64,000 bases of DNA from an uncultured Clostridia bacterium. Its GTDB lineage: Bacteria; Bacillota; Clostridia; TANB77; UBA1234. The stretch's first letter is position 1. Each line of letters opens with the position of its first letter. The stretch is taken from assembly GCA_944393265.1 (NCBI GenBank), contig CALXZO010000009.1, forward strand, positions 1,103 through 65,102. Reading direction: 5' to 3'. The translations under genes were made by a program, and so were the position numbers. Shown here one piece after another: positions 3,091-19,293 of this stretch. The notes beneath the pieces are model-generated. The model worked only from the letters and a program-made list of their open reading frames with translations. It searched no databases and was not told where the DNA came from.

Positions 3091-3185
3091 GACATGGGGA
3101 CGAAGTTTTTGTCTATACCTTTTAAAAGCGATCAGCCTATGGCAATAGGCTAAAGTAGTATAGACAAAAACTTCGTCCCCATGTC
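3091..3185. repeat. palindromic intergenic repeat copy P1 (~95 bp)
   Basis: gacatggggacgaagtttttgtctatac ... gcctatggcaataggc ... gtatagacaaaaacttcgtccccatgtc: near-perfect 28-bp inverted arms around a conserved caatagg core. Confidence 0.65.
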
Positions 3186-3288
3186 TACAGAATTATTTGC
3201 TTTTTGTCTTGAAACTATTGAATTTTGGGGAAATTTATTTTATAATGAGCGTGTTATGTAAAGAAGAAAAGTGGGAGGAGAAAACGTA

Positions 3289-7592: not shown

Positions 7593-7703
7593 TTGCATTG
7601 AAAGCGGAAAGTATATGATATTAGAAATAATATAGTGACTTATAATCCGTTGTCAATTGTAGTGCTATTAAATATCCTAACTTAGAGAGGAGAGGGTCGA
7701 TAA

Positions 7704-7979
7704 GTGGAGGATATAAGAGTTGCGCTAGGAAATAGAATTAAGAAGTTGAGACAAGGATTAAAAATTAGTCAAGAAGCTTTAGCATACCGTGCGGACTTAG
7801 ATAGGACGTATATTGCGTCAATTGAAAAAGGAAGGAGAAATGTATCTATAGTAAATATCGAAAGAATCGCACTTGCTTTAAATTGTACTCTTTCAAGTTT
7901 TTTTGATGCAGACGAATTTAGAGAGCGTGTACCAGATGATTATATGAAAGTAGCAGAAGAAGATAAAACTTACAATTAA
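7704..7979 (+). CDS. XRE-family HTH transcriptional regulator, small (91 aa), paralog 1 of 3
   Basis: Cro/C1-type HTH (GNRIKKLRQGLKISQEALA ... DRTYIASIEKGRRNVSIVNIERIA); GTG start after a GAGAGGAGAGG RBS. Confidence 0.8.
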   Translation: MEDIRVALGNRIKKLRQGLKISQEALAYRADLDRTYIASIEKGRRNVSIVNIERIALALNCTLSSFFDADEFRERVPDDYMKVAEEDKTYN

Positions 7980-8063
7980 TGAATTAGGAAAATAATGTTG
8001 TAAAAGAAATAGGAATAATTGATGAAATAAATATTATTATGATGAGAAAGGGCTTTAATAGAT

Positions 8064-8348
8064 ATGGAAGACGTCAAAGTGTTGGTTGGAAATAGAATTA
8101 AATATCTACGAAAGAAGTCGAATCTTACTCAATATACACTAGCAGAAAAAATAGGATTTGATAGAACATATTTAGCAGGTGTTGAAAGTGGAAAGCGAAA
8201 TGTGTCAATACTTAATATTCAAAAAATTGCAAAAGTGCTTAAGTGTACAATAGCAGACTTTTTTGATTCGGATGAGTTTAAAATAAATACTCCAAACGAA
8301 TTTGCAAAAACAGTTGATAAAGTGGCTTTTTATAGGCGACTTAAGTAG
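8064..8348 (+). CDS. XRE-family HTH transcriptional regulator, small (94 aa), paralog 2 of 3
   Basis: same HTH architecture; ~50-60% identical to its neighbours. Confidence 0.8.
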   Translation: MEDVKVLVGNRIKYLRKKSNLTQYTLAEKIGFDRTYLAGVESGKRNVSILNIQKIAKVLKCTIADFFDSDEFKINTPNEFAKTVDKVAFYRRLK

Positions 8349-8462
8349 AGGTTAAGTGCAAATGAGGATAAGGAAGGAGGAGATTTTTTTATGAGCTAAC
8401 TGTGACTTATAATCCGTTGCCTTTTATTCTACTATTTAATATCCTAATGGCAGGAGGATGCC

Positions 8463-8747
8463 ATGGAAGATATTAGGATGTTAGTCGGTAAAAGGATAAA
8501 AAGTTTGCGTAAGCAAATTAATATAAGCCAAGAAAAGCTGGCTTTCGGAGCTAATATTGATAGAACGTACCTTGCATCTGTTGAAAATGGGAAAAGAAAT
8601 ATTTCAATAATAAATATAGAAAGGATAGCTCTCGCACTAGGTTATACTTTAGCAGATTTTTTTGATTCAGAAGAGTTTAAAATAAATTTGCCAGCGGATT
8701 ATTTGTTGGTAGCAGAAAAGTTTTTTGATGAGAAAAAGTATAAGTAA
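8463..8747 (+). CDS. XRE-family HTH transcriptional regulator, small (94 aa), paralog 3 of 3
   Basis: same HTH architecture; shares a conserved ~50-nt upstream leader with paralog 1. Confidence 0.8.
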   Translation: MEDIRMLVGKRIKSLRKQINISQEKLAFGANIDRTYLASVENGKRNISIINIERIALALGYTLADFFDSEEFKINLPADYLLVAEKFFDEKKYK

Positions 8748-8925
8748 TTGAAGCGTTAAAATTGAAAATATTTCTAAAACTAAAAACAATTAACAACAAA
8801 ACCCTCATTTGATTTAATGTTCAAGAGGGTTTTATTATTGCTATATATTATCACAGACGTATTTTGAAATGAAATTTCAATAGCTGTGTTTTTATGTTAA
8901 AATATTTTCATAGGAGTGATTAAAA

Positions 8926-9832: not shown

Positions 9833-9990
9833 TCTTTTTATTGTATAGGAAAGTAATCAAAAAATAACAAATTATGTTACCAAATGCTTCCCGTATGAGA
9901 CAACAAAAATTTCATATTTAAAGTCGAGCTTTGCTCGACTTTAAAGAATCAAAAATCTCTGATTTTTTAGATTTTCATTTTTGTTCTTTA
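9833..9990. repeat. ~155-bp structured dispersed repeat, copy A (three consecutive hairpins)
   Basis: near-identical to 12001-12154, 17729-17882 and 32057-32212; internal palindromes ggaaagta...tactttcc, aagtcgagctttgctcgactt, gaaaatcaaaaatc...gattttttagattttc. Confidence 0.8.
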
Positions 9991-10164: not shown

Positions 10165-10731
10165 ATGAAACAGAAGAGAGCGGATTTCATCCGAATGATC
10201 CGCATCGAAAAGCTCTCGATAGAGGAGATTGCCAAGGTTTTGGGCGTCACTCCTTTGACCGTGCGGCGAAACATCCGCAGTAGCTACATCCGAAAGGGAT
10301 GGGCAGAGACGCTACTGGCCGAGGCTAAGGCGAACGCCAAAGCCAAGAAAGTTGAGAAGACTGAGTTGGTGTACTTGCTCGACACCTCTTATCTCCTTAA
10401 CAGGCCTGAGAGTTGTCTGAAGTTGGATGGACGACTGCTCATGCCACGTTTCTGCAGAAACGAGGTGGAACATCTCATTTCAGGAGGAACGGTCGAAAGA
10501 CCGGACCAGGTGAAGCAAGTCCTCGAGATGGCAGATCTCATCTATATTGAGGATTTGCCCCGGGTGGAACTGCCACCCGAAATGGGATTTTTAAAGAGCA
10601 GGAACATCATGTTCCTAAGGTACGCAAGTGCTTTGAGCGCTAGTACCGATAACCTTCGGATCTGCGTGAAGAGCTACGAGCTGCAGAAGCTCTTAGAACT
10701 AAGCCGGATTCACGACGTCGCCTCTCGTTGA
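10165..10731 (+). CDS. GC-rich foreign ORF: HTH plus PIN-like domain protein (putative nuclease/toxin-like)
   Basis: ~50% GC against ~29% background; AAAGGGGA RBS before the ATG at 10165 (ORF track starts 10147); N-terminal HTH (LSIEEIAKVLGVTPLTVRR) and a PIN-like LLDTSYLL ... RNEVEHL segment; contains 4 in-frame CGG Arg codons. Confidence 0.5.
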   Translation: MKQKRADFIRMIRIEKLSIEEIAKVLGVTPLTVRRNIRSSYIRKGWAETLLAEAKANAKAKKVEKTELVYLLDTSYLLNRPESCLKLDGRLLMPRFCRNEVEHLISGGTVERPDQVKQVLEMADLIYIEDLPRVELPPEMGFLKSRNIMFLRYASALSASTDNLRICVKSYELQKLLELSRIHDVASR

Positions 10732-11935: not shown

Positions 11936-12000
11936 AACTACCAAAGAATAGGAGAAAATATTTTAAATTGTGCGGTTCCAAGGTTAGCTAGGAATCGCTT

Positions 12001-12154
12001 TTTTATTTCATAGGAAAGTAATCAAAAATTAACGAATTATGTTACTAAATACTTTCCGTATGAAACAACAAAAATTCCATATTTAAAGTCTAGCTTTGCT
12101 CGACATATGAAAATCAAAAATCTTTGATTTTTTAGATTTTCATTTTTGTTCTTG
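12001..12154. repeat. ~155-bp structured dispersed repeat, copy B
   Basis: ttttatttcataggaaagtaatcaaaaattaacgaattatgttactaaatactttccgtatgaaacaac...gattttttagattttcatttttgttc. Confidence 0.8.
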
Positions 12155-16022: not shown

Positions 16023-17225
16023 ATGGCAAAAGAAAAGTTTGAAAGAAATAAGCCACATGTCAATATTGGTACAATCGGACATGTTGACCATGGTAAAACT
16101 ACTTTAACAGCAGCTATTACAAAAGTATTATCTTTAAAAGGAGAAGCAGAATTTAAAGCTTACGATCAAATCGATGGAGCACCAGAAGAAAAAGCAAGAG
16201 GAATCACAATTAATACAGCACACGTTGAATATCAAACAGAGGCTAGACACTATGCACACGTTGACTGCCCAGGACACGCAGACTACGTTAAGAACATGAT
16301 TACAGGTGCTGCTCAAATGGATGGAGCAATCCTTGTTGTTTCAGCAGCAGATGGCCCAATGCCACAAACAAGAGAGCATATCCTACTTGCAAGACAAGTT
16401 GGAGTTCCTTATATCGTAGTATTCTTAAATAAATGCGATATGGTTGACGATCCAGAACTATTAGAACTAGTTGAAATGGAAGTTAGAGAATTATTAAATA
16501 AATATGAATTCCCTGGAGATACAACTCCAATCATTAGAGGCTCAGGATTAAAAGTTCTTGAATCTACATCAACAGATCCAAATGCACCAGAATATGAGTG
16601 CATCAGAGAATTAATGAAAACTGTTGATGAGTATATCCCTACTCCTCAAAGACCAGTTGATCAACCATTCCTAATGCCAGTTGAGGACGTTTTCACAATT
16701 ACAGGACGTGGAACAGTTGCAACAGGTAGAGTTGAGAGAGGTATTGTAAAGCTTTCTGACGAAGTTGAGATCGTTGGTATAGCAAAAGAAACAAAGAAGA
16801 CAGTTGTAACAGGTGTTGAAATGTTTAGAAAATTGCTAGACCAAGCAGAGGCAGGAGATAATATCGGTGTACTTTTAAGAGGTATCCAAAGAAATGAAAT
16901 TGAGAGAGGTCAAGTTCTTGCAAAACCAGGAACAATACGTCCACATACTTCATTCAAAGGAGAGGTATACGTATTGACTAAAGAAGAGGGTGGAAGACAC
17001 AAGCCATTCTTTAGTAATTATAGACCACAATTCTATTTCAGAACAACAGACGTTACAGGAGTTATAACATTACCTGCTGGAACAGAAATGGTTATGCCAG
17101 GTGATAACGTAACTATGGATATAGAATTAATCACACCAATAGCTATTGAAAAGGGACTTAAGTTCGCTATTCGTGAAGGCGGAAAAACAGTTGGTGCGGG
17201 TATCGTTACAGAAATTAAAGAGTAA
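16023..17225 (+). CDS. tuf: elongation factor Tu
   Basis: [33 protein letters not shown]; 400 aa. Confidence 0.95.
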
Positions 17226-17258
17226 TTTTATCATACAGATTATAATAAGAACCTCCAA

Positions 17259-17281
17259 GACTAGAAACTATCTAGTTTTTG
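17259..17281 (+). terminator. rho-independent terminator after tuf
   Basis: ctagaaactatctag hairpin followed by ttttt. Confidence 0.55.
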
Positions 17282-17289
17282 GGGGTTTT

Positions 17290-17335
17290 ATTTTTATTTC
17301 ATACGGAAAGTATTTAATAACATAATACGCTAATT
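17290..17335. repeat. partial collapsed copy (E) of the ~155-bp repeat
   Basis: tttatttcatacggaaagtatttaataacataat matches the left arm and inner inverted segment of the first hairpin of the family. Confidence 0.4.
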
Positions 17336-17362
17336 GGTAAGTATCTTCTTATGAAATAAAAA

Positions 17363-17383
17363 ACTCCCGAAAAATTCGGGAGT
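17363..17383 (-). terminator. hairpin terminator serving the minus-strand GC-rich ORF
   Basis: actcccgaaaaattcgggagt perfect stem; the U-run is on the minus strand (aaaaaa at 17357-17362 on plus). Confidence 0.55.
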
Positions 17384-17401
17384 AAAGAGCCATTTCAACG
17401 G

Positions 17402-17629
17402 TTAGTCGGGCGGGTGAATGTACGAGATCCAGCCCCTATGGAACAAGAACACATTCATACCGTCCCGCTGCAACTCGCTGGCAGAAACAATCCTCGTTTC
17501 ACAGGCATGCCGCGAAAACGGAGAGTTGCAGTTTGCGCAAAACTGCACGTCGTTACCAGTACCTTCTAGGCACAAAGCTTTGCACCTAGAACAGACTCTG
17601 AGCATCACGTTCGGTTCAGGACTATTCAT
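17402..17629 (-). CDS. GC-rich foreign ORF: small Cys-rich zinc-ribbon-like protein (75 aa)
   Basis: ~52% GC; strong AAAGGAGGG RBS 7 nt before the ATG; CxxC ... CxxC spacing (CSRCKALC ... FCANCNS); own terminator; 2 in-frame CGG codons. Confidence 0.45.
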   Translation of the reverse strand: MNSPEPNVMLRVCSRCKALCLEGTGNDVQFCANCNSPFSRHACETRIVSASELQRDGMNVFLFHRGWISYIHPPD

Positions 17630-17728
17630 TGAGGTCCCTCCTTTTTTGTTTGTTTAGCATTAACATTATATCACGACATTTGTATATAAGCAAGCAAAAA
17701 GATAGGCAAGAATTAAGGATAATGCTGT

Positions 17729-17882
17729 TTTTTATTTCATAGGAAAGTAATCAAAAATTAATGAATTATGTTACCAAATACTTCCCGTATGAAACAACAA
17801 AAATTTCATATTTAAAGTCGAGCTTTGCTCGACATATGAAAATCAAAAATCTTTGATTTTTTAGATTTTCATTTTTGTTCTC
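17729..17882. repeat. ~155-bp structured dispersed repeat, copy C
   Basis: near-identical to copies A, B and D. Confidence 0.8.
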
Positions 17883-18117
17883 TTTTAATTTGCATTTTAT
17901 GTTCTGATGTAATATAATGCCATGGTATAGTAATATATATTAGAAAAATATAATAATAATGAGATAAAGCAGTTTAGATTCTTTAATTTTAATTATTTTT
18001 TATGTCTAATAAAAATAGTAAATGGTTGAAGGATTTGAGGTACTGTTTAATATAATAAAAATTTAAAAAGGAGGGAGTTTCGTATAGTGTTTATAGTGCA
18101 TTATACGGGTAATTTTA

Positions 18118-19293
18118 ATGAAGATTTTAGTTGATGCTATGGGAGGAGATAAAAGCCCAGATGAGATCATCAAAGGTTGTGTTGATGCGATTGATGTTCT
18201 TGAGTCCGAGATAATTTTGATTGGTAATGAGGAAATTATTAATCAAAAAGTAAAGGAATTTTATGGAAAAGAAAAATTATCAGAAATTAATTCAAAGTTA
18301 TCGATAAGAAATGCTAATACTGTAATTCAAAACGAAGAAGCTCCAACAATTGCAATAAAGACAAAGAAAGATTCGTCTATGGTTGTTGGATTTAATATGC
18401 TAAAAAATGGAGAAGGCGATGCGTTTGTTTCAGCTGGCAGCACAGGTGCCTTTATGACAGGTGGATTGCTTCTTGTAGGAAGAATAAAAGGTATTGACCG
18501 TCCAGCGCTTTGTCCAATTTTGCCAACATATAACGGCAAAGGATTCATGCTAATTGATTGTGGGGCAAATACAAATTGCAGACCTATTAATTTATTTCAG
18601 TTTGCTACAATGGGAAAAATATATATGAACAAAGTTATGCATATTGATGATCCAGTGGTTGGATTACTTAACATAGGAACTGAAGAAGGCAAAGGAAGTT
18701 TGCTAACAAAAGAGGCATTTACGCAATTCGCAGAAACAGATGAGTTTAATTTTTATGGTAATATTGAAGGTAGAGAAATATTTAATGGAGATGTTAATGT
18801 TGTCGTTACCGATGGATTTACTGGAAACGTTACATTAAAAACAATTGAAGGAATGGGTTCTATGGTTAGCAAAATGCTAAAAGAAGAATTGTACGCTAAT
18901 CCATGGAGAAAGTTCTTAGCATTACTACTAATGCCAGCCTTGAAAAGATTTAAGAAAAGAATGGATTATAGTGAATATGGCGGGGCACTATTACTTGGAA
19001 TTAAGAAACCTTTAATAAAATGCCACGGAACAGCCAATGCTAAAATAGTAAAATATACATTAATTCAAGCTGAAAACTTTGCTAAAAATAGAGCGGTGGA
19101 GACGATTGAAGAAGAATTTGTAAAGCTATCGAAGTTGCAAAAAGATTCTGAAATAGAAGAAAATGTGGTAAACAATAATTATAGTAAGGAAAATCTATCT
19201 CAAAACAAAACTGAAATTCCAATAGAAGACACAAAACTAAAAAATGCGAAAGAACATGTGAAGGGTAATAGAAAAAGCAAGAAGAAAAAATGA
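18118..19293 (+). CDS. plsX: phosphate acyltransferase PlsX, with an unusual ~60-aa Lys/Glu-rich C-terminal extension
   Basis: MKILVDAMGGDKSPDEII ... PlsX signature; 391 aa against the usual ~330. Confidence 0.9.
   Translation: MKILVDAMGGDKSPDEIIKGCVDAIDVLESEIILIGNEEIINQKVKEFYGKEKLSEINSKLSIRNANTVIQNEEAPTIAIKTKKDSSMVVGFNMLKNGEGDAFVSAGSTGAFMTGGLLLVGRIKGIDRPALCPILPTYNGKGFMLIDCGANTNCRPINLFQFATMGKIYMNKVMHIDDPVVGLLNIGTEEGKGSLLTKEAFTQFAETDEFNFYGNIEGREIFNGDVNVVVTDGFTGNVTLKTIEGMGSMVSKMLKEELYANPWRKFLALLLMPALKRFKKRMDYSEYGGALLLGIKKPLIKCHGTANAKIVKYTLIQAENFAKNRAVETIEEEFVKLSKLQKDSEIEENVVNNNYSKENLSQNKTEIPIEDTKLKNAKEHVKGNRKSKKKK

What the first reader, a model, noticed from the sequence alone, without database searches (positions are those of the whole stretch)
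17290..17882. Second GC-rich islet, a 75-aa Cys-rich zinc-ribbon ORF between tuf and plsX, bracketed by a partial and a full copy of the 155-bp repeat
The layout is: partial repeat E (17290-17335), terminator hairpin (17363-17383), a ~52% GC minus-strand ORF with a textbook AAAGGAGGG RBS and CxxC-x14-CxxC, then full repeat copy C (17729-17882). Being flanked by two members of the same repeat family looks like a small composite insertion in a highly conserved operon junction (tuf to plsX). The ORF contains 2 in-frame CGG codons. The alternative is a structured GC-rich ncRNA, since the segment contains several palindromes such as ctaggcacaaagctttgcacctag.
Basis: partly seen in the sequence, partly recalled or inferred. 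Interest (0 to 1): 0.6.

Follow-up and report, generated by a model that had tools for sequence, protein, structure and literature searches.

The report
Orphan zinc-ribbon gene, persistently GC-rich
The GC-rich patch between tuf and plsX is a real, independently transcribed gene for a 75-residue zinc-ribbon protein of an unnamed family found only in very AT-rich gut Clostridia; it was inherited vertically rather than carried in by the flanking repeats, and every intact member examined is oddly GC-rich compared with its neighbours.

Summary
The described features are present, with two corrections. The "partial repeat" is a 72-nt copy at 17291-17362 in inverted orientation, and the two repeat copies do not form a composite element.

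**The ORF is a genuine gene.**
- The minus-strand ORF at 17402-17629 has homologues of 24-34% identity at the same tuf-plsX position in related species.
- The four Cys, plus Gly, Phe and Trp, are conserved.
- dN/dS is 0.09-0.29, and its dS matches that of plsX for the same genome pairs.
- An extended -10 promoter (TGATATAAT/TGATATACT type), a strong SD and a terminator are present.
- AlphaFold gives pLDDT 85.

**The ncRNA alternative fails.** There is no Rfam hit, no conserved structure and no consistent folding excess.

**The family is small and uncharacterised.** It comprises roughly 25-40 protein clusters. It has no name and no Pfam, NCBIfam, PHROG or PADLOC membership, and nothing from it turns up in phage or plasmid collections. 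Function is unknown. I infer a small metal-stabilised binding protein.

**The 154-nt repeat is younger than the gene.** It is species-specific and absent from every relative that carries the gene.

**Unexplained.** All 15 intact family members, in at least four genomic contexts, have GC3 far above their neighbours (for example 0.62 vs 0.21-0.24 here). The one decayed copy has dropped to 0.28. This suggests the composition is maintained rather than a fading transfer footprint.

The parts
17250..17290 (+). tuf terminator-like hairpin plus T-run; not part of the islet, marks its left boundary
   Evidence: Hairpin AACCUCCAAGACUAGA...UCUAGUUUUUGGGGGUU is visible in the chance mir-2432 alignment and in the sequence. 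The terminator scan did not list it because it has few G-C pairs.
17291..17362 (-). Partial copy (hairpin-1 module, model positions 2-73) of the 154-nt species-specific repeat, in inverted orientation; directly follows the ORF's terminator
   Evidence: nhmmer E 9e-8 on the minus strand; exact TTTCATACGGAAAGTA match to the minus strand of copies B and D; alignment; junction with the terminator T-run.
17363..17383 (-). Intrinsic terminator of the zinc-ribbon gene (9-bp stem, 5 G-C pairs, then a T-run)
17402..17629 (-). CDS of the 75-aa Cys4 zinc-ribbon protein (stop codon included)
   Evidence: ORF; homologues at the same locus in relatives; family alignment with 4 invariant Cys; dN/dS 0.09-0.29; AF2 pLDDT 85.
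17636..17641 (-). Shine-Dalgarno GGAGGG, 6 nt upstream of the ATG
   Evidence: Sequence; equivalent GGAGG in all orthologues.
17665..17693 (-). Promoter: -35 TTGCTT (17693-17688), 17-nt spacer, extended -10 TGaTATAAT (17673-17665)
   Evidence: Read from the sequence. The consensus scan missed it because the -35 matches only 3 of 6. A TGATATAAT/TGATATACT-type extended -10 is conserved upstream of the orthologues in L019, L020, L024, L025, L028 and L115.
17728..17881 (+). Full copy (C) of the 154-nt repeat, between the divergent zinc-ribbon and plsX promoters

Best explanation
The islet is a monocistronic, minus-strand gene for a 75-residue Cys4 zinc-ribbon protein. It has an extended -10 promoter, a 29-nt leader with a strong SD, the CDS at 17402-17629 and an intrinsic terminator.

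The protein belongs to a small unnamed family found so far only in very AT-rich uncultured gut Clostridia. The family signature is CPxCgA-x-C-x-eG-hDDD-x-Q-x-x-CA-x-CG-x-sF ... GW-x-A-Y/F, in proteins of 70-92 aa.

The gene already sat between tuf and plsX, on the opposite strand, in the ancestor of this genus-level clade. It has descended vertically, evolves fast under purifying selection, was lost in several species and is decaying in one.

The 154-nt repeats are a younger, species-specific intergenic element that landed independently in the two spacers next to the gene. One copy is truncated, just behind its terminator. The other is full-length, between the divergent promoters.

Mechanism, inferred and not shown: four Cys hold one metal ion. 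This staples a small all-beta domain whose acidic knuckle loop and C-terminal GWxAY strand form a binding surface. The protein therefore most likely acts stoichiometrically by binding a macromolecular partner (nucleic acid or a nucleic-acid-handling protein) rather than as an enzyme.

Its GC-rich, rare-codon composition is a family-wide trait. It is probably maintained by selection acting on the mRNA, through stability or translation rate.

The confidence of 0.8 applies to identity and history: a real gene, an orphan zinc-ribbon family, vertical descent and younger repeats. The binding-protein mechanism stands at about 0.3, and selection on GC content at about 0.45.
For: **Coding**
- Homologues of 24-34% identity lie in the same position and orientation in L019, L020, L024, L025, L028 and L115.
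- Cys13, Cys16, Cys31 and Cys34 are invariant, and G23, F38 and W67 nearly so, across 30 sequences.
- L024 vs L025 shows 21 synonymous and 7 non-synonymous codon differences.
- dN/dS is 0.09-0.29.
- AF2 with the 30-sequence alignment gives pLDDT 85.3 and pTM 0.71.

**Expression signals**
- The terminator was found by the scan.
- The extended -10 box and GGAGG are conserved in the orthologues.

**Vertical descent**
- ZR dS vs plsX dS is 1.23 vs 1.06 (L019/L020), 0.78 vs 0.96 (L024/L025) and 1.89 vs 1.25 (L025/L028).
- The distribution of the gene is congruent with the PlsX tree.
- A second lineage keeps the gene in a fixed slot between an AI-2E transporter gene and dfx.

**Not mobile**
- There is no hit in viral contigs, phages or plasmids.
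- The repeat is absent from all relatives.

**Composition**
- GC3 is 0.44-0.62 against 0.20-0.29 in neighbouring genes in the tuf-plsX clade. It is 0.23-0.47 against 0.09-0.14 in the other AT-rich lineages.
- The enrichment holds in all synonymous classes.
- Polarised synonymous changes are balanced, 9 S>W to 9 W>S.
- The L026 pseudogene has GC3 0.28.
- 22% of the codons are rare, against 1-3% in core genes.
Against: - There are no expression or proteomic data.
- Gene callers did not call this ORF in any same-species contig.
- The window's copy is the most divergent member. It has TGND in place of HDDD and one residue fewer in the knuckle loop.
- The only two within-species SNPs in the CDS are both non-synonymous (V12A and N59D in L002). 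Relaxed constraint in this species cannot be excluded.
- No function is supported. Only sub-threshold, generic zinc-ribbon matches were found, no structural neighbour and no informative operon partner.
- Selection on GC content is not proven. Four-fold distances of 0.4-0.9 would still allow an incompletely ameliorated ancient transfer from a very GC-rich donor. The parsimony polarisation is biased, as the plsX control shows. The pseudogene is a single case.
Confidence: 0.8

Rival explanations
1. One reading: a small composite or mobile cassette, recently inserted into the tuf-plsX junction and mobilised by the two flanking members of the 154-nt repeat family.
For: - The gene is flanked by a partial copy (17291-17362, minus strand) and a full copy (17728-17881, plus strand) whose hairpin-1 modules face each other as inverted repeats.
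- The islet is absent from several relatives.
- Its composition is foreign-looking.
Against: - The repeat is absent from 78 relatives' loci, including all those with the gene at the same site.
- The gene's dS equals plsX dS, and its tree follows the species tree.
- The promoter box is conserved across the clade.
- The partial copy sits behind the gene's terminator. Full copies A and B sit the same way behind the terminators of unrelated genes, so that position is simply where these repeats tend to lie.
- No transposase or target duplication was seen.
Confidence: 0.04
2. The segment is a structured GC-rich non-coding RNA, and the ORF is incidental.
For: - The 311-nt transcript folds with z = -3.3, terminator included.
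- A 12-bp hairpin lies at 17566-17589.
- No gene was called here in public assemblies.
Against: - There is no Rfam family at E <= 1 other than chance terminator-like hits.
- The CDS-only z-score is -1.9 here and ranges from -1.4 to +1.0 in nine relatives.
- The RNAalifold consensus energy is -3.9 kcal/mol with a negligible covariation term.
- Conservation is at the amino-acid level, with codon periodicity and low dN/dS.
Confidence: 0.03
3. The gene is real, but its GC-richness is only the slowly fading footprint of one ancient transfer from a GC-rich donor (neutral amelioration). It is not a selected trait.
For: - Four-fold-site distances in tuf+plsX are only 0.4-0.9 between clade members. A donor GC3 of 0.7-0.95 could therefore still leave 0.45-0.6 today.
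- Other accessory genes in these genomes are also GC-rich: islet 1, the HD gene, the L024 lipoprotein/TM pair and a methyltransferase.
- GC3 varies among members, from 0.23 to 0.62.
Against: - NG86 dS values of 1.0-1.9 for the same pairs predict near-complete decay.
- Sister species separated by dS of about 1 keep GC3 at 0.55-0.62.
- Polarised changes are balanced rather than about 4:1 S>W.
- The single inactivated copy has fallen to GC3 0.28.
- The offset from host GC3 is similar in lineages with different backgrounds (logit offset 0.8-1.9).
- No family member was found in a GC-rich genome.
Confidence: 0.35
4. Functional rivals for the protein: (a) a Lar-like anti-restriction or other phage-derived protein; (b) a rubredoxin-like Fe(Cys)4 electron carrier linked to desulfoferrodoxin.
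For: (a) Eleven of 30 members touch PF14354 Lar_restr_allev (best E 9e-4). Fifteen of 30 touch phrog_1568 (best E 2.7e-6).

(b) In a second lineage the gene always lies one or two genes upstream of dfx and near a thioredoxin gene. Nine members weakly touch the NCBIfam 'DVU_1557 family redox protein' model.
Against: (a) All scores are below the curated cut-offs, and the window protein has no hit. Nothing was found in viral contigs, phages or plasmids, and PADLOC gave nothing.

(b) The knuckle spacing is 14, not about 29. hhalign probability to C. pasteurianum rubredoxin is 20%, over one knuckle only. The dfx neighbourhood is a single lineage's synteny with a variable gene in between and a separate terminator. 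The window clade has no such neighbour.
Confidence: 0.15

Closest known systems
Lar-family restriction alleviation proteins (Pfam PF14354, TIGR03655, phrog_6422)
   Same: - Stand-alone proteins of about 60-80 aa.
- A CPxCG ... CxxCG zinc ribbon, followed by a short segment with a conserved Trp.
- Some family members give weak matches to these models.
   Different: - All matches are below the curated thresholds, and the window protein gives none.
- The family has a distinctive acidic hDDD knuckle loop and a longer C-terminal part that ends in GWxAY/F.
- The genes are chromosomal and syntenic, not in phages or plasmids.
Generic Cys4 zinc ribbons of the transcription and translation machinery (eS27, eL43/L37ae, TFIIB, Elf1)
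   Same: Two CxxC knuckles about 14-17 residues apart on beta-hairpins. These are the best sequence hits among solved structures (E 9e-5 to 0.5).
   Different: Only the roughly 30-residue knuckle region aligns. There is no significant fold match for the whole domain. The proteins are bacterial, stand-alone and not ribosomal.
Rubredoxin
   Same: A small Cys4 metal site built from CxxCG/CPxCG knuckles. In one lineage the gene lies near desulfoferrodoxin, whose usual electron donor is rubredoxin (established knowledge).
   Different: The knuckle spacing is 14 rather than about 29. hhalign probability is 20% over 11 columns. No rubredoxin model appeared among the hits.
Short hairpin-rich intergenic repeats (MITE / REP / PATE-type elements), for the flanking 154-nt repeat only
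   Same: - 154 nt long and non-coding, with three hairpins.
- Four full copies and one partial copy in 64 kb, all intergenic.
- Three of five copies abut a terminator stem.
- Species-specific.
   Different: No terminal inverted repeats, target-site duplication or cognate transposase were identified. Mobility is inferred only from the distribution.
Rare-codon-dependent expression, such as bldA/TTA control in Streptomyces (my own knowledge, an analogy only)
   Same: A gene whose codons are strongly atypical for its genome: 22% rare codons, with CGG about 60-fold enriched.
   Different: The compositional direction is opposite. There is no evidence for a regulated tRNA. The enrichment covers all synonymous classes rather than one codon.

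Membership tests
Cys4 zinc ribbon (fold class) | Two CxxC knuckles separated by about 12-20 residues | tested here: met
   C13xxC16-x14-C31xxC34 in the window protein; the four Cys are invariant in 30 family members.
Cys4 zinc ribbon (fold class) | Knuckles carried on beta-hairpins that form a small sheet | tested here: met
   The AF2 model (pLDDT 85.3) has strands 7-12, 19-21, 28-30 and 37-39 around the knuckles. This is a prediction, not a solved structure.
Cys4 zinc ribbon (fold class) | Binds one Zn (or Fe) ion | not testable with these tools
   Needs purified protein and metal analysis.
Lar restriction alleviation (PF14354 / TIGR03655) | Scores at or above the curated cut-off of the family model | tested here: not met
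   The window protein has no hit. The best family member reaches E 9e-4 (Pfam) and 3.4e-3 (TIGR03655), both below the cut-offs.
Lar restriction alleviation (PF14354 / TIGR03655) | Encoded in a prophage, phage or mobile element | tested here: not met
   No relatives in IMG/VR, INPHARED phages or PLSDB plasmids. The chromosomal contexts are syntenic.
Rubredoxin | Profile similarity across both knuckles with a spacer of about 29 residues and an aromatic core | tested here: not met
   hhalign probability 20%, 11 columns, one knuckle only.
Composite or repeat-mobilised cassette | The same flanking repeats accompany the cargo wherever the cargo occurs | tested here: not met
   nhmmer finds the repeat only in the window. 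It is absent from L019, L020, L024, L025, L028 and L115, which carry the gene, and from L026, which has a decayed copy.
Composite or repeat-mobilised cassette | Recent arrival: cargo divergence decoupled from flanking core genes | tested here: not met
   ZR dS is close to plsX dS for three genome pairs, and the phylogenies are congruent.
Known structured RNA family (Rfam 15) | Covariance-model hit | tested here: not met
   Nothing at the gathering threshold in the window apart from a T-box and a tRNA elsewhere. Nothing meaningful at E <= 1 in 16900-18300.
Structured RNA (any) | Conserved secondary structure or covariation among homologues | tested here: not met
   Consensus energy -3.9 kcal/mol, covariation term -0.61. 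CDS z-scores range from -1.9 to +1.0.
Anti-phage defence proteins (PADLOC-DB 2.0) | Match to a defence-system model | tested here: not met
   No hit for the window protein. Only E of about 1e-3 to 1e-2 chance-level hits for two relatives.

The most novel reading that the evidence does not exclude
The GC-rich, rare-codon composition may be a selected, heritable property of this small-protein family in extremely AT-rich genomes. It is not a relic of transfer. It would then be a built-in device that sets mRNA stability or translation rate, or makes expression depend on rare tRNAs such as tRNA-Arg(CCG). The 'GC-rich islets' would in that case be functional signatures. The supporting evidence has four parts:
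- All 15 intact members are GC3-elevated.
- The gene descends vertically with saturated dS.
- S>W and W>S changes are balanced.
- The only pseudogene has lost its GC.
Probability: 0.3. Interest if true: 0.6.

Novelty: new variant of a known kind. Interest (0 to 1): 0.4.

Why it matters
The result rescues a real small-protein gene that automatic gene callers missed in every public contig of this species. It also defines an undescribed zinc-ribbon family confined to poorly known, uncultured AT-rich gut Clostridia.

It shows that 'flanked by repeats' can mislead: here the repeats are younger than the gene.

The persistent GC-richness of the family is a compact natural test case for selection on synonymous composition. 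It could be tested directly by recoding the gene or by population genomics. If it is only slow amelioration, the finding is an ordinary orphan gene.

Tried and rejected
**Searches that gave nothing**
- Rfam, both at gathering thresholds and at E-value <= 1.
- A single-sequence search of the 5.8-billion-protein set, and an exact look-up.
- A genome-contig scan with the 75-aa protein: no confirmed relative. Relatives were reached instead through PlsX synteny.
- Viral contigs, phage and plasmid tblastn, and PADLOC.
- Foldseek against PDB (two models) and BFVD: nothing significant.

**Misleading or uninformative results**
- The metagenome scan with P0001 returned one true relative (L118). The other 30 loci shared little more than a YVCPRCGA-like zinc-knuckle motif; most of the 21 I examined were N-terminal zinc ribbons of archaeal-type helicases and other large proteins, not family members.
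- Literature searches found nothing specific to this family.

**Hypotheses tested and rejected**
- A conserved antisense ORF. The long plus-strand ORFs lie in different frames in the window and in L024. The codon-complement frame is interrupted in the window. They are a by-product of GC-richness.
- A rubredoxin relationship.
- A shared origin of the three GC-rich islets. Neither the 188-aa HTH protein nor the HD protein has a homologue in the relatives' loci, so no link to the zinc-ribbon gene could be shown.

Full report
**What is there**

The window is about 32% GC. Between tuf (16023-17225, +) and plsX (18118-19293, +) lies an 892-nt spacer. In it, GC rises to 0.52 at 17400-17599 and falls back to 0.20-0.33 on both sides.

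The GC-rich part coincides with a minus-strand ORF at 17402-17629. It encodes 75 aa with the motif C13xxC16-x14-C31xxC34. Read on the minus strand, the unit is complete:
- -35 TTGCTT at 17693-17688, a 17-nt spacer and an extended -10 TGaTATAAT at 17673-17665.
- A leader of about 29 nt carrying GGAGGG (17641-17636), 6 nt before the ATG.
- The CDS, followed by a 9-bp G+C-rich hairpin and T-run at 17383-17363. The terminator scan found this hairpin.

The promoter scan missed the promoter because its -35 matches only 3 of 6 positions.

**The repeats**

The repeat finder and an nhmmer profile confirm four full copies of a 154-nt repeat at 9834, 11999, 17728 and 32057, all on the plus strand. They also find one partial copy.

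It covers model positions 2-73, the first hairpin module. It lies at 17291-17362 on the minus strand (E 9e-8).

It begins exactly at the T-run of the ORF's terminator. Full copies A and B begin in the same way at the terminators of unrelated upstream genes. No such terminator stem is evident upstream of copies C and D.

**Gene or RNA?**

Rfam gives nothing at the gathering threshold or at E <= 1, apart from chance terminator-like matches. The single protein has no match in the 5.8-billion-protein set. No gene was called here in any same-species metagenome contig, although the DNA in those contigs is 99.7-100% identical.

Relatives settled the question. I fetched 78 loci around PlsX homologues from species-representative genomes. 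About 38 of them have tuf upstream of plsX. The spacer ranges from 142 to 4360 nt.

In the genus-level clade closest to the window (PlsX 73-82% identical):
- L019, L020, L024, L025 and L028 hold a GC-rich minus-strand ORF of 79 aa at the same place. So does L115, which I found later.
- Each of these ORFs has GGAGG and a TGATATAAT/TGATATACT-type extended -10 box.
- Identity to the window protein is only 24-34%, and the DNA no longer aligns.
- The four Cys are nevertheless invariant. Gly23, Phe38, Trp67 and an acidic hDDD knuckle loop are nearly so.

Selection statistics agree. L024 and L025 differ at 21 synonymous and 7 non-synonymous codons. NG86 dN/dS is 0.09-0.29.

AlphaFold2 with the 30-sequence alignment gives pLDDT 85.3 and pTM 0.71. 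The model is a small beta domain with one short helix.

By contrast, the RNA evidence is negative:
- RNAalifold on seven orthologous transcripts gives -3.9 kcal/mol over 332 columns, with a negligible covariation term.
- CDS-only MFE z-scores range from -1.9 to +1.0.
- The long plus-strand ORFs over the gene lie in different frames in different species. They are by-products of GC-richness.

The ORF is therefore a protein-coding gene, and the ncRNA alternative is rejected.

**History**

On a PlsX neighbour-joining tree, the zinc-ribbon (ZR) gene is present in the window, in (L019, L020) and in (L028, (L024, L025)). It is decayed in L026. It is absent from (L021, L022, L023), from L030 and from the basal group L027, L029, L090 and L091. 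ZR sequence groups mirror that tree.

For the same genome pairs, ZR dS equals plsX dS: 1.23 vs 1.06, 0.78 vs 0.96 and 1.89 vs 1.25. The gene has thus co-diverged with its neighbours. The pattern is one gain followed by several losses, not recent or repeated insertion.

The 154-nt repeat is found nowhere in the 78 relatives' loci. It post-dates the gene and cannot have delivered it. This refutes the 'composite insertion' reading. The gene's variable presence at this junction is real.

**The family**

A profile search of 1.84 billion representative proteins finds about 25 clusters of 70-92 aa. A further profile search adds about 15 more. No source gives any of them a name.

There are two subfamilies:
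- The tuf-plsX type.
- A more populous type that always sits in one slot between an AI-2E transporter gene and a desulfoferrodoxin-patatin-thioredoxin cluster. A variable gene sometimes lies between ZR and dfx.

Pfam, NCBIfam, PHROGs, PDB sequences and PADLOC give only weak, sub-threshold, generic zinc-ribbon matches: Lar, eS27, Elf1, phrog_1568 and DVU_1557. Foldseek finds no significant neighbour in PDB or BFVD. Nothing related turns up in viral contigs, phage genomes or plasmids. Rubredoxin matches over one knuckle only, with hhalign probability 20%.

**How it most likely works**

- *Shown:* a conserved Cys4 site, a confidently predicted compact beta domain, its own promoter, SD and terminator, purifying selection and rapid sequence turnover.
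- *Inferred:* a metal-stapled mini-domain with no catalytic residues, which acts by binding a partner. The repeated weak resemblance to nucleic-acid-associated zinc ribbons makes a nucleic acid, or a protein of the transcription/translation apparatus, the best guess (about 0.25).
- *Lesser possibilities:* a Lar-like anti-restriction role or a rubredoxin-like redox role (together about 0.15).

**The unexplained part**

GC3 of the ZR gene is 0.62 here, against 0.21-0.24 for tuf, plsX, fusA and prfA. The median GC3 of 40 long ORFs in the window is 0.23.

The same holds for all 15 intact members examined:
- 0.44-0.62 against 0.20-0.29 in the tuf-plsX clade.
- 0.23-0.47 against 0.09-0.14 in the AI-2E/dfx lineage and in L117.
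- 0.53 in L116, whose flanks are 6-30% GC.

The enrichment affects Y-ending codons (0.59 vs 0.22), R-ending codons (0.38 vs 0.15) and four-fold sites (0.44 vs 0.09). In the window gene, 22% of the codons are rare for this genome. Among them are two CGG codons, and CGG occurs only 7 times in 15,868 core codons.

Several observations point to a maintained composition, not a fading footprint of transfer:
- The gene descends vertically with dS of about 1-2.
- Polarised synonymous changes are balanced, 9 S>W to 9 W>S in the two proper trios. A decaying GC-rich sequence should show about 4:1.
- The one inactivated copy, in L026 (CPNRG and a premature stop), has GC3 of 0.28.

The case is not closed. 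Four-fold distances of 0.4-0.9 would still allow partial amelioration from a very GC-rich donor. The parsimony polarisation is biased, as the plsX control shows. The pseudogene is one case. No specific RNA structure explains the composition.

**Verdict**

The ORF interpretation is right. The composite-insertion and ncRNA interpretations are wrong.

The object is a previously uncalled member of an undescribed small zinc-ribbon family. Its function is unknown. Its compositional anomaly is consistent across the family, unexplained and possibly selected. Interest is moderate.

Noticed in passing
window 10165-10731 (+): First GC-rich islet. It encodes a 188-aa protein with an N-terminal Sigma70_r4_2-like HTH and GC3 of 0.64. 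Its coding sequence folds far better than dinucleotide shuffles (z = -6.7). It has its own TGaTATAAT promoter and a terminator, and repeat copy A lies directly upstream. No homologue was found near plsX in 78 relatives.
   Followed up: partly
window 28742-29275 (-): Third GC-rich islet. It encodes a 177-aa HD-domain protein (Pfam HD, E 1.6e-9) with GC3 of 0.51 and a CDS MFE z-score of -3.9. It lies about 190 nt from a tRNA gene at 29469-29539, which is a classic integration neighbourhood.
   Followed up: partly
window 9834-9987, 11999-12152, 17728-17881, 32057-32210, 17291-17362(-): A 154-nt repeat with three hairpins, 86-97% identical between copies. It is species-specific, being absent from 78 relatives' loci. 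Three of five copies start at the T-run of a terminator. Same-species contigs L003 and L013 switch gene neighbourhood exactly at a repeat copy. This points either to recombination or to assembly breaks at the repeat.
   Followed up: partly
window 3134-3187, 22860-22913, 28384-28437: A second repeat family: three 54-nt copies, 78-83% identical, each starting with a small AGCCTAT..ATAGGCT hairpin.
   Followed up: no
L024 1681-2688 (-) and L025 8574-9583 (-): In two relatives the tuf-plsX spacer also holds a GC-rich gene pair next to the zinc-ribbon gene. One gene encodes a 191-aa predicted lipoprotein and the other a 133-aa single-pass membrane protein (GC3 0.58-0.62). Neither has a Pfam hit.
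   Followed up: partly
L026 1058-1219 (-): A decayed zinc-ribbon copy: the first knuckle reads CPNRG and there is a premature stop. Its GC3 has dropped to 0.28, so it serves as a natural control for the GC anomaly.
   Followed up: yes
window 18070-18120 (+): The plsX ATG at 18118 has no Shine-Dalgarno sequence. A strong AGGAGGG sits about 45 nt upstream and is followed by a 12-bp hairpin at 18079-18109. This may be a leader, a uORF or a translational-coupling arrangement.
   Followed up: no
L112 3609-4514; L149 4533-5435: In the AI-2E/dfx lineage, an N6_N4 DNA methyltransferase two genes upstream of the zinc-ribbon gene is also GC3-elevated: 0.39 and 0.25, against about 0.11 for its neighbours.
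   Followed up: no
P0101 (667-nt ENA contig): One family member has the zinc-ribbon part fused to a Fis-type HTH C-terminus (Pfam PF02954/PF18024). It could be a real fusion or an assembly artefact.
   Followed up: no
window 7600-8750 (+): Three tandem paralogous genes for XRE-type HTH_3 proteins of about 91-94 aa, with internal repeat families D3 and D4.
   Followed up: no
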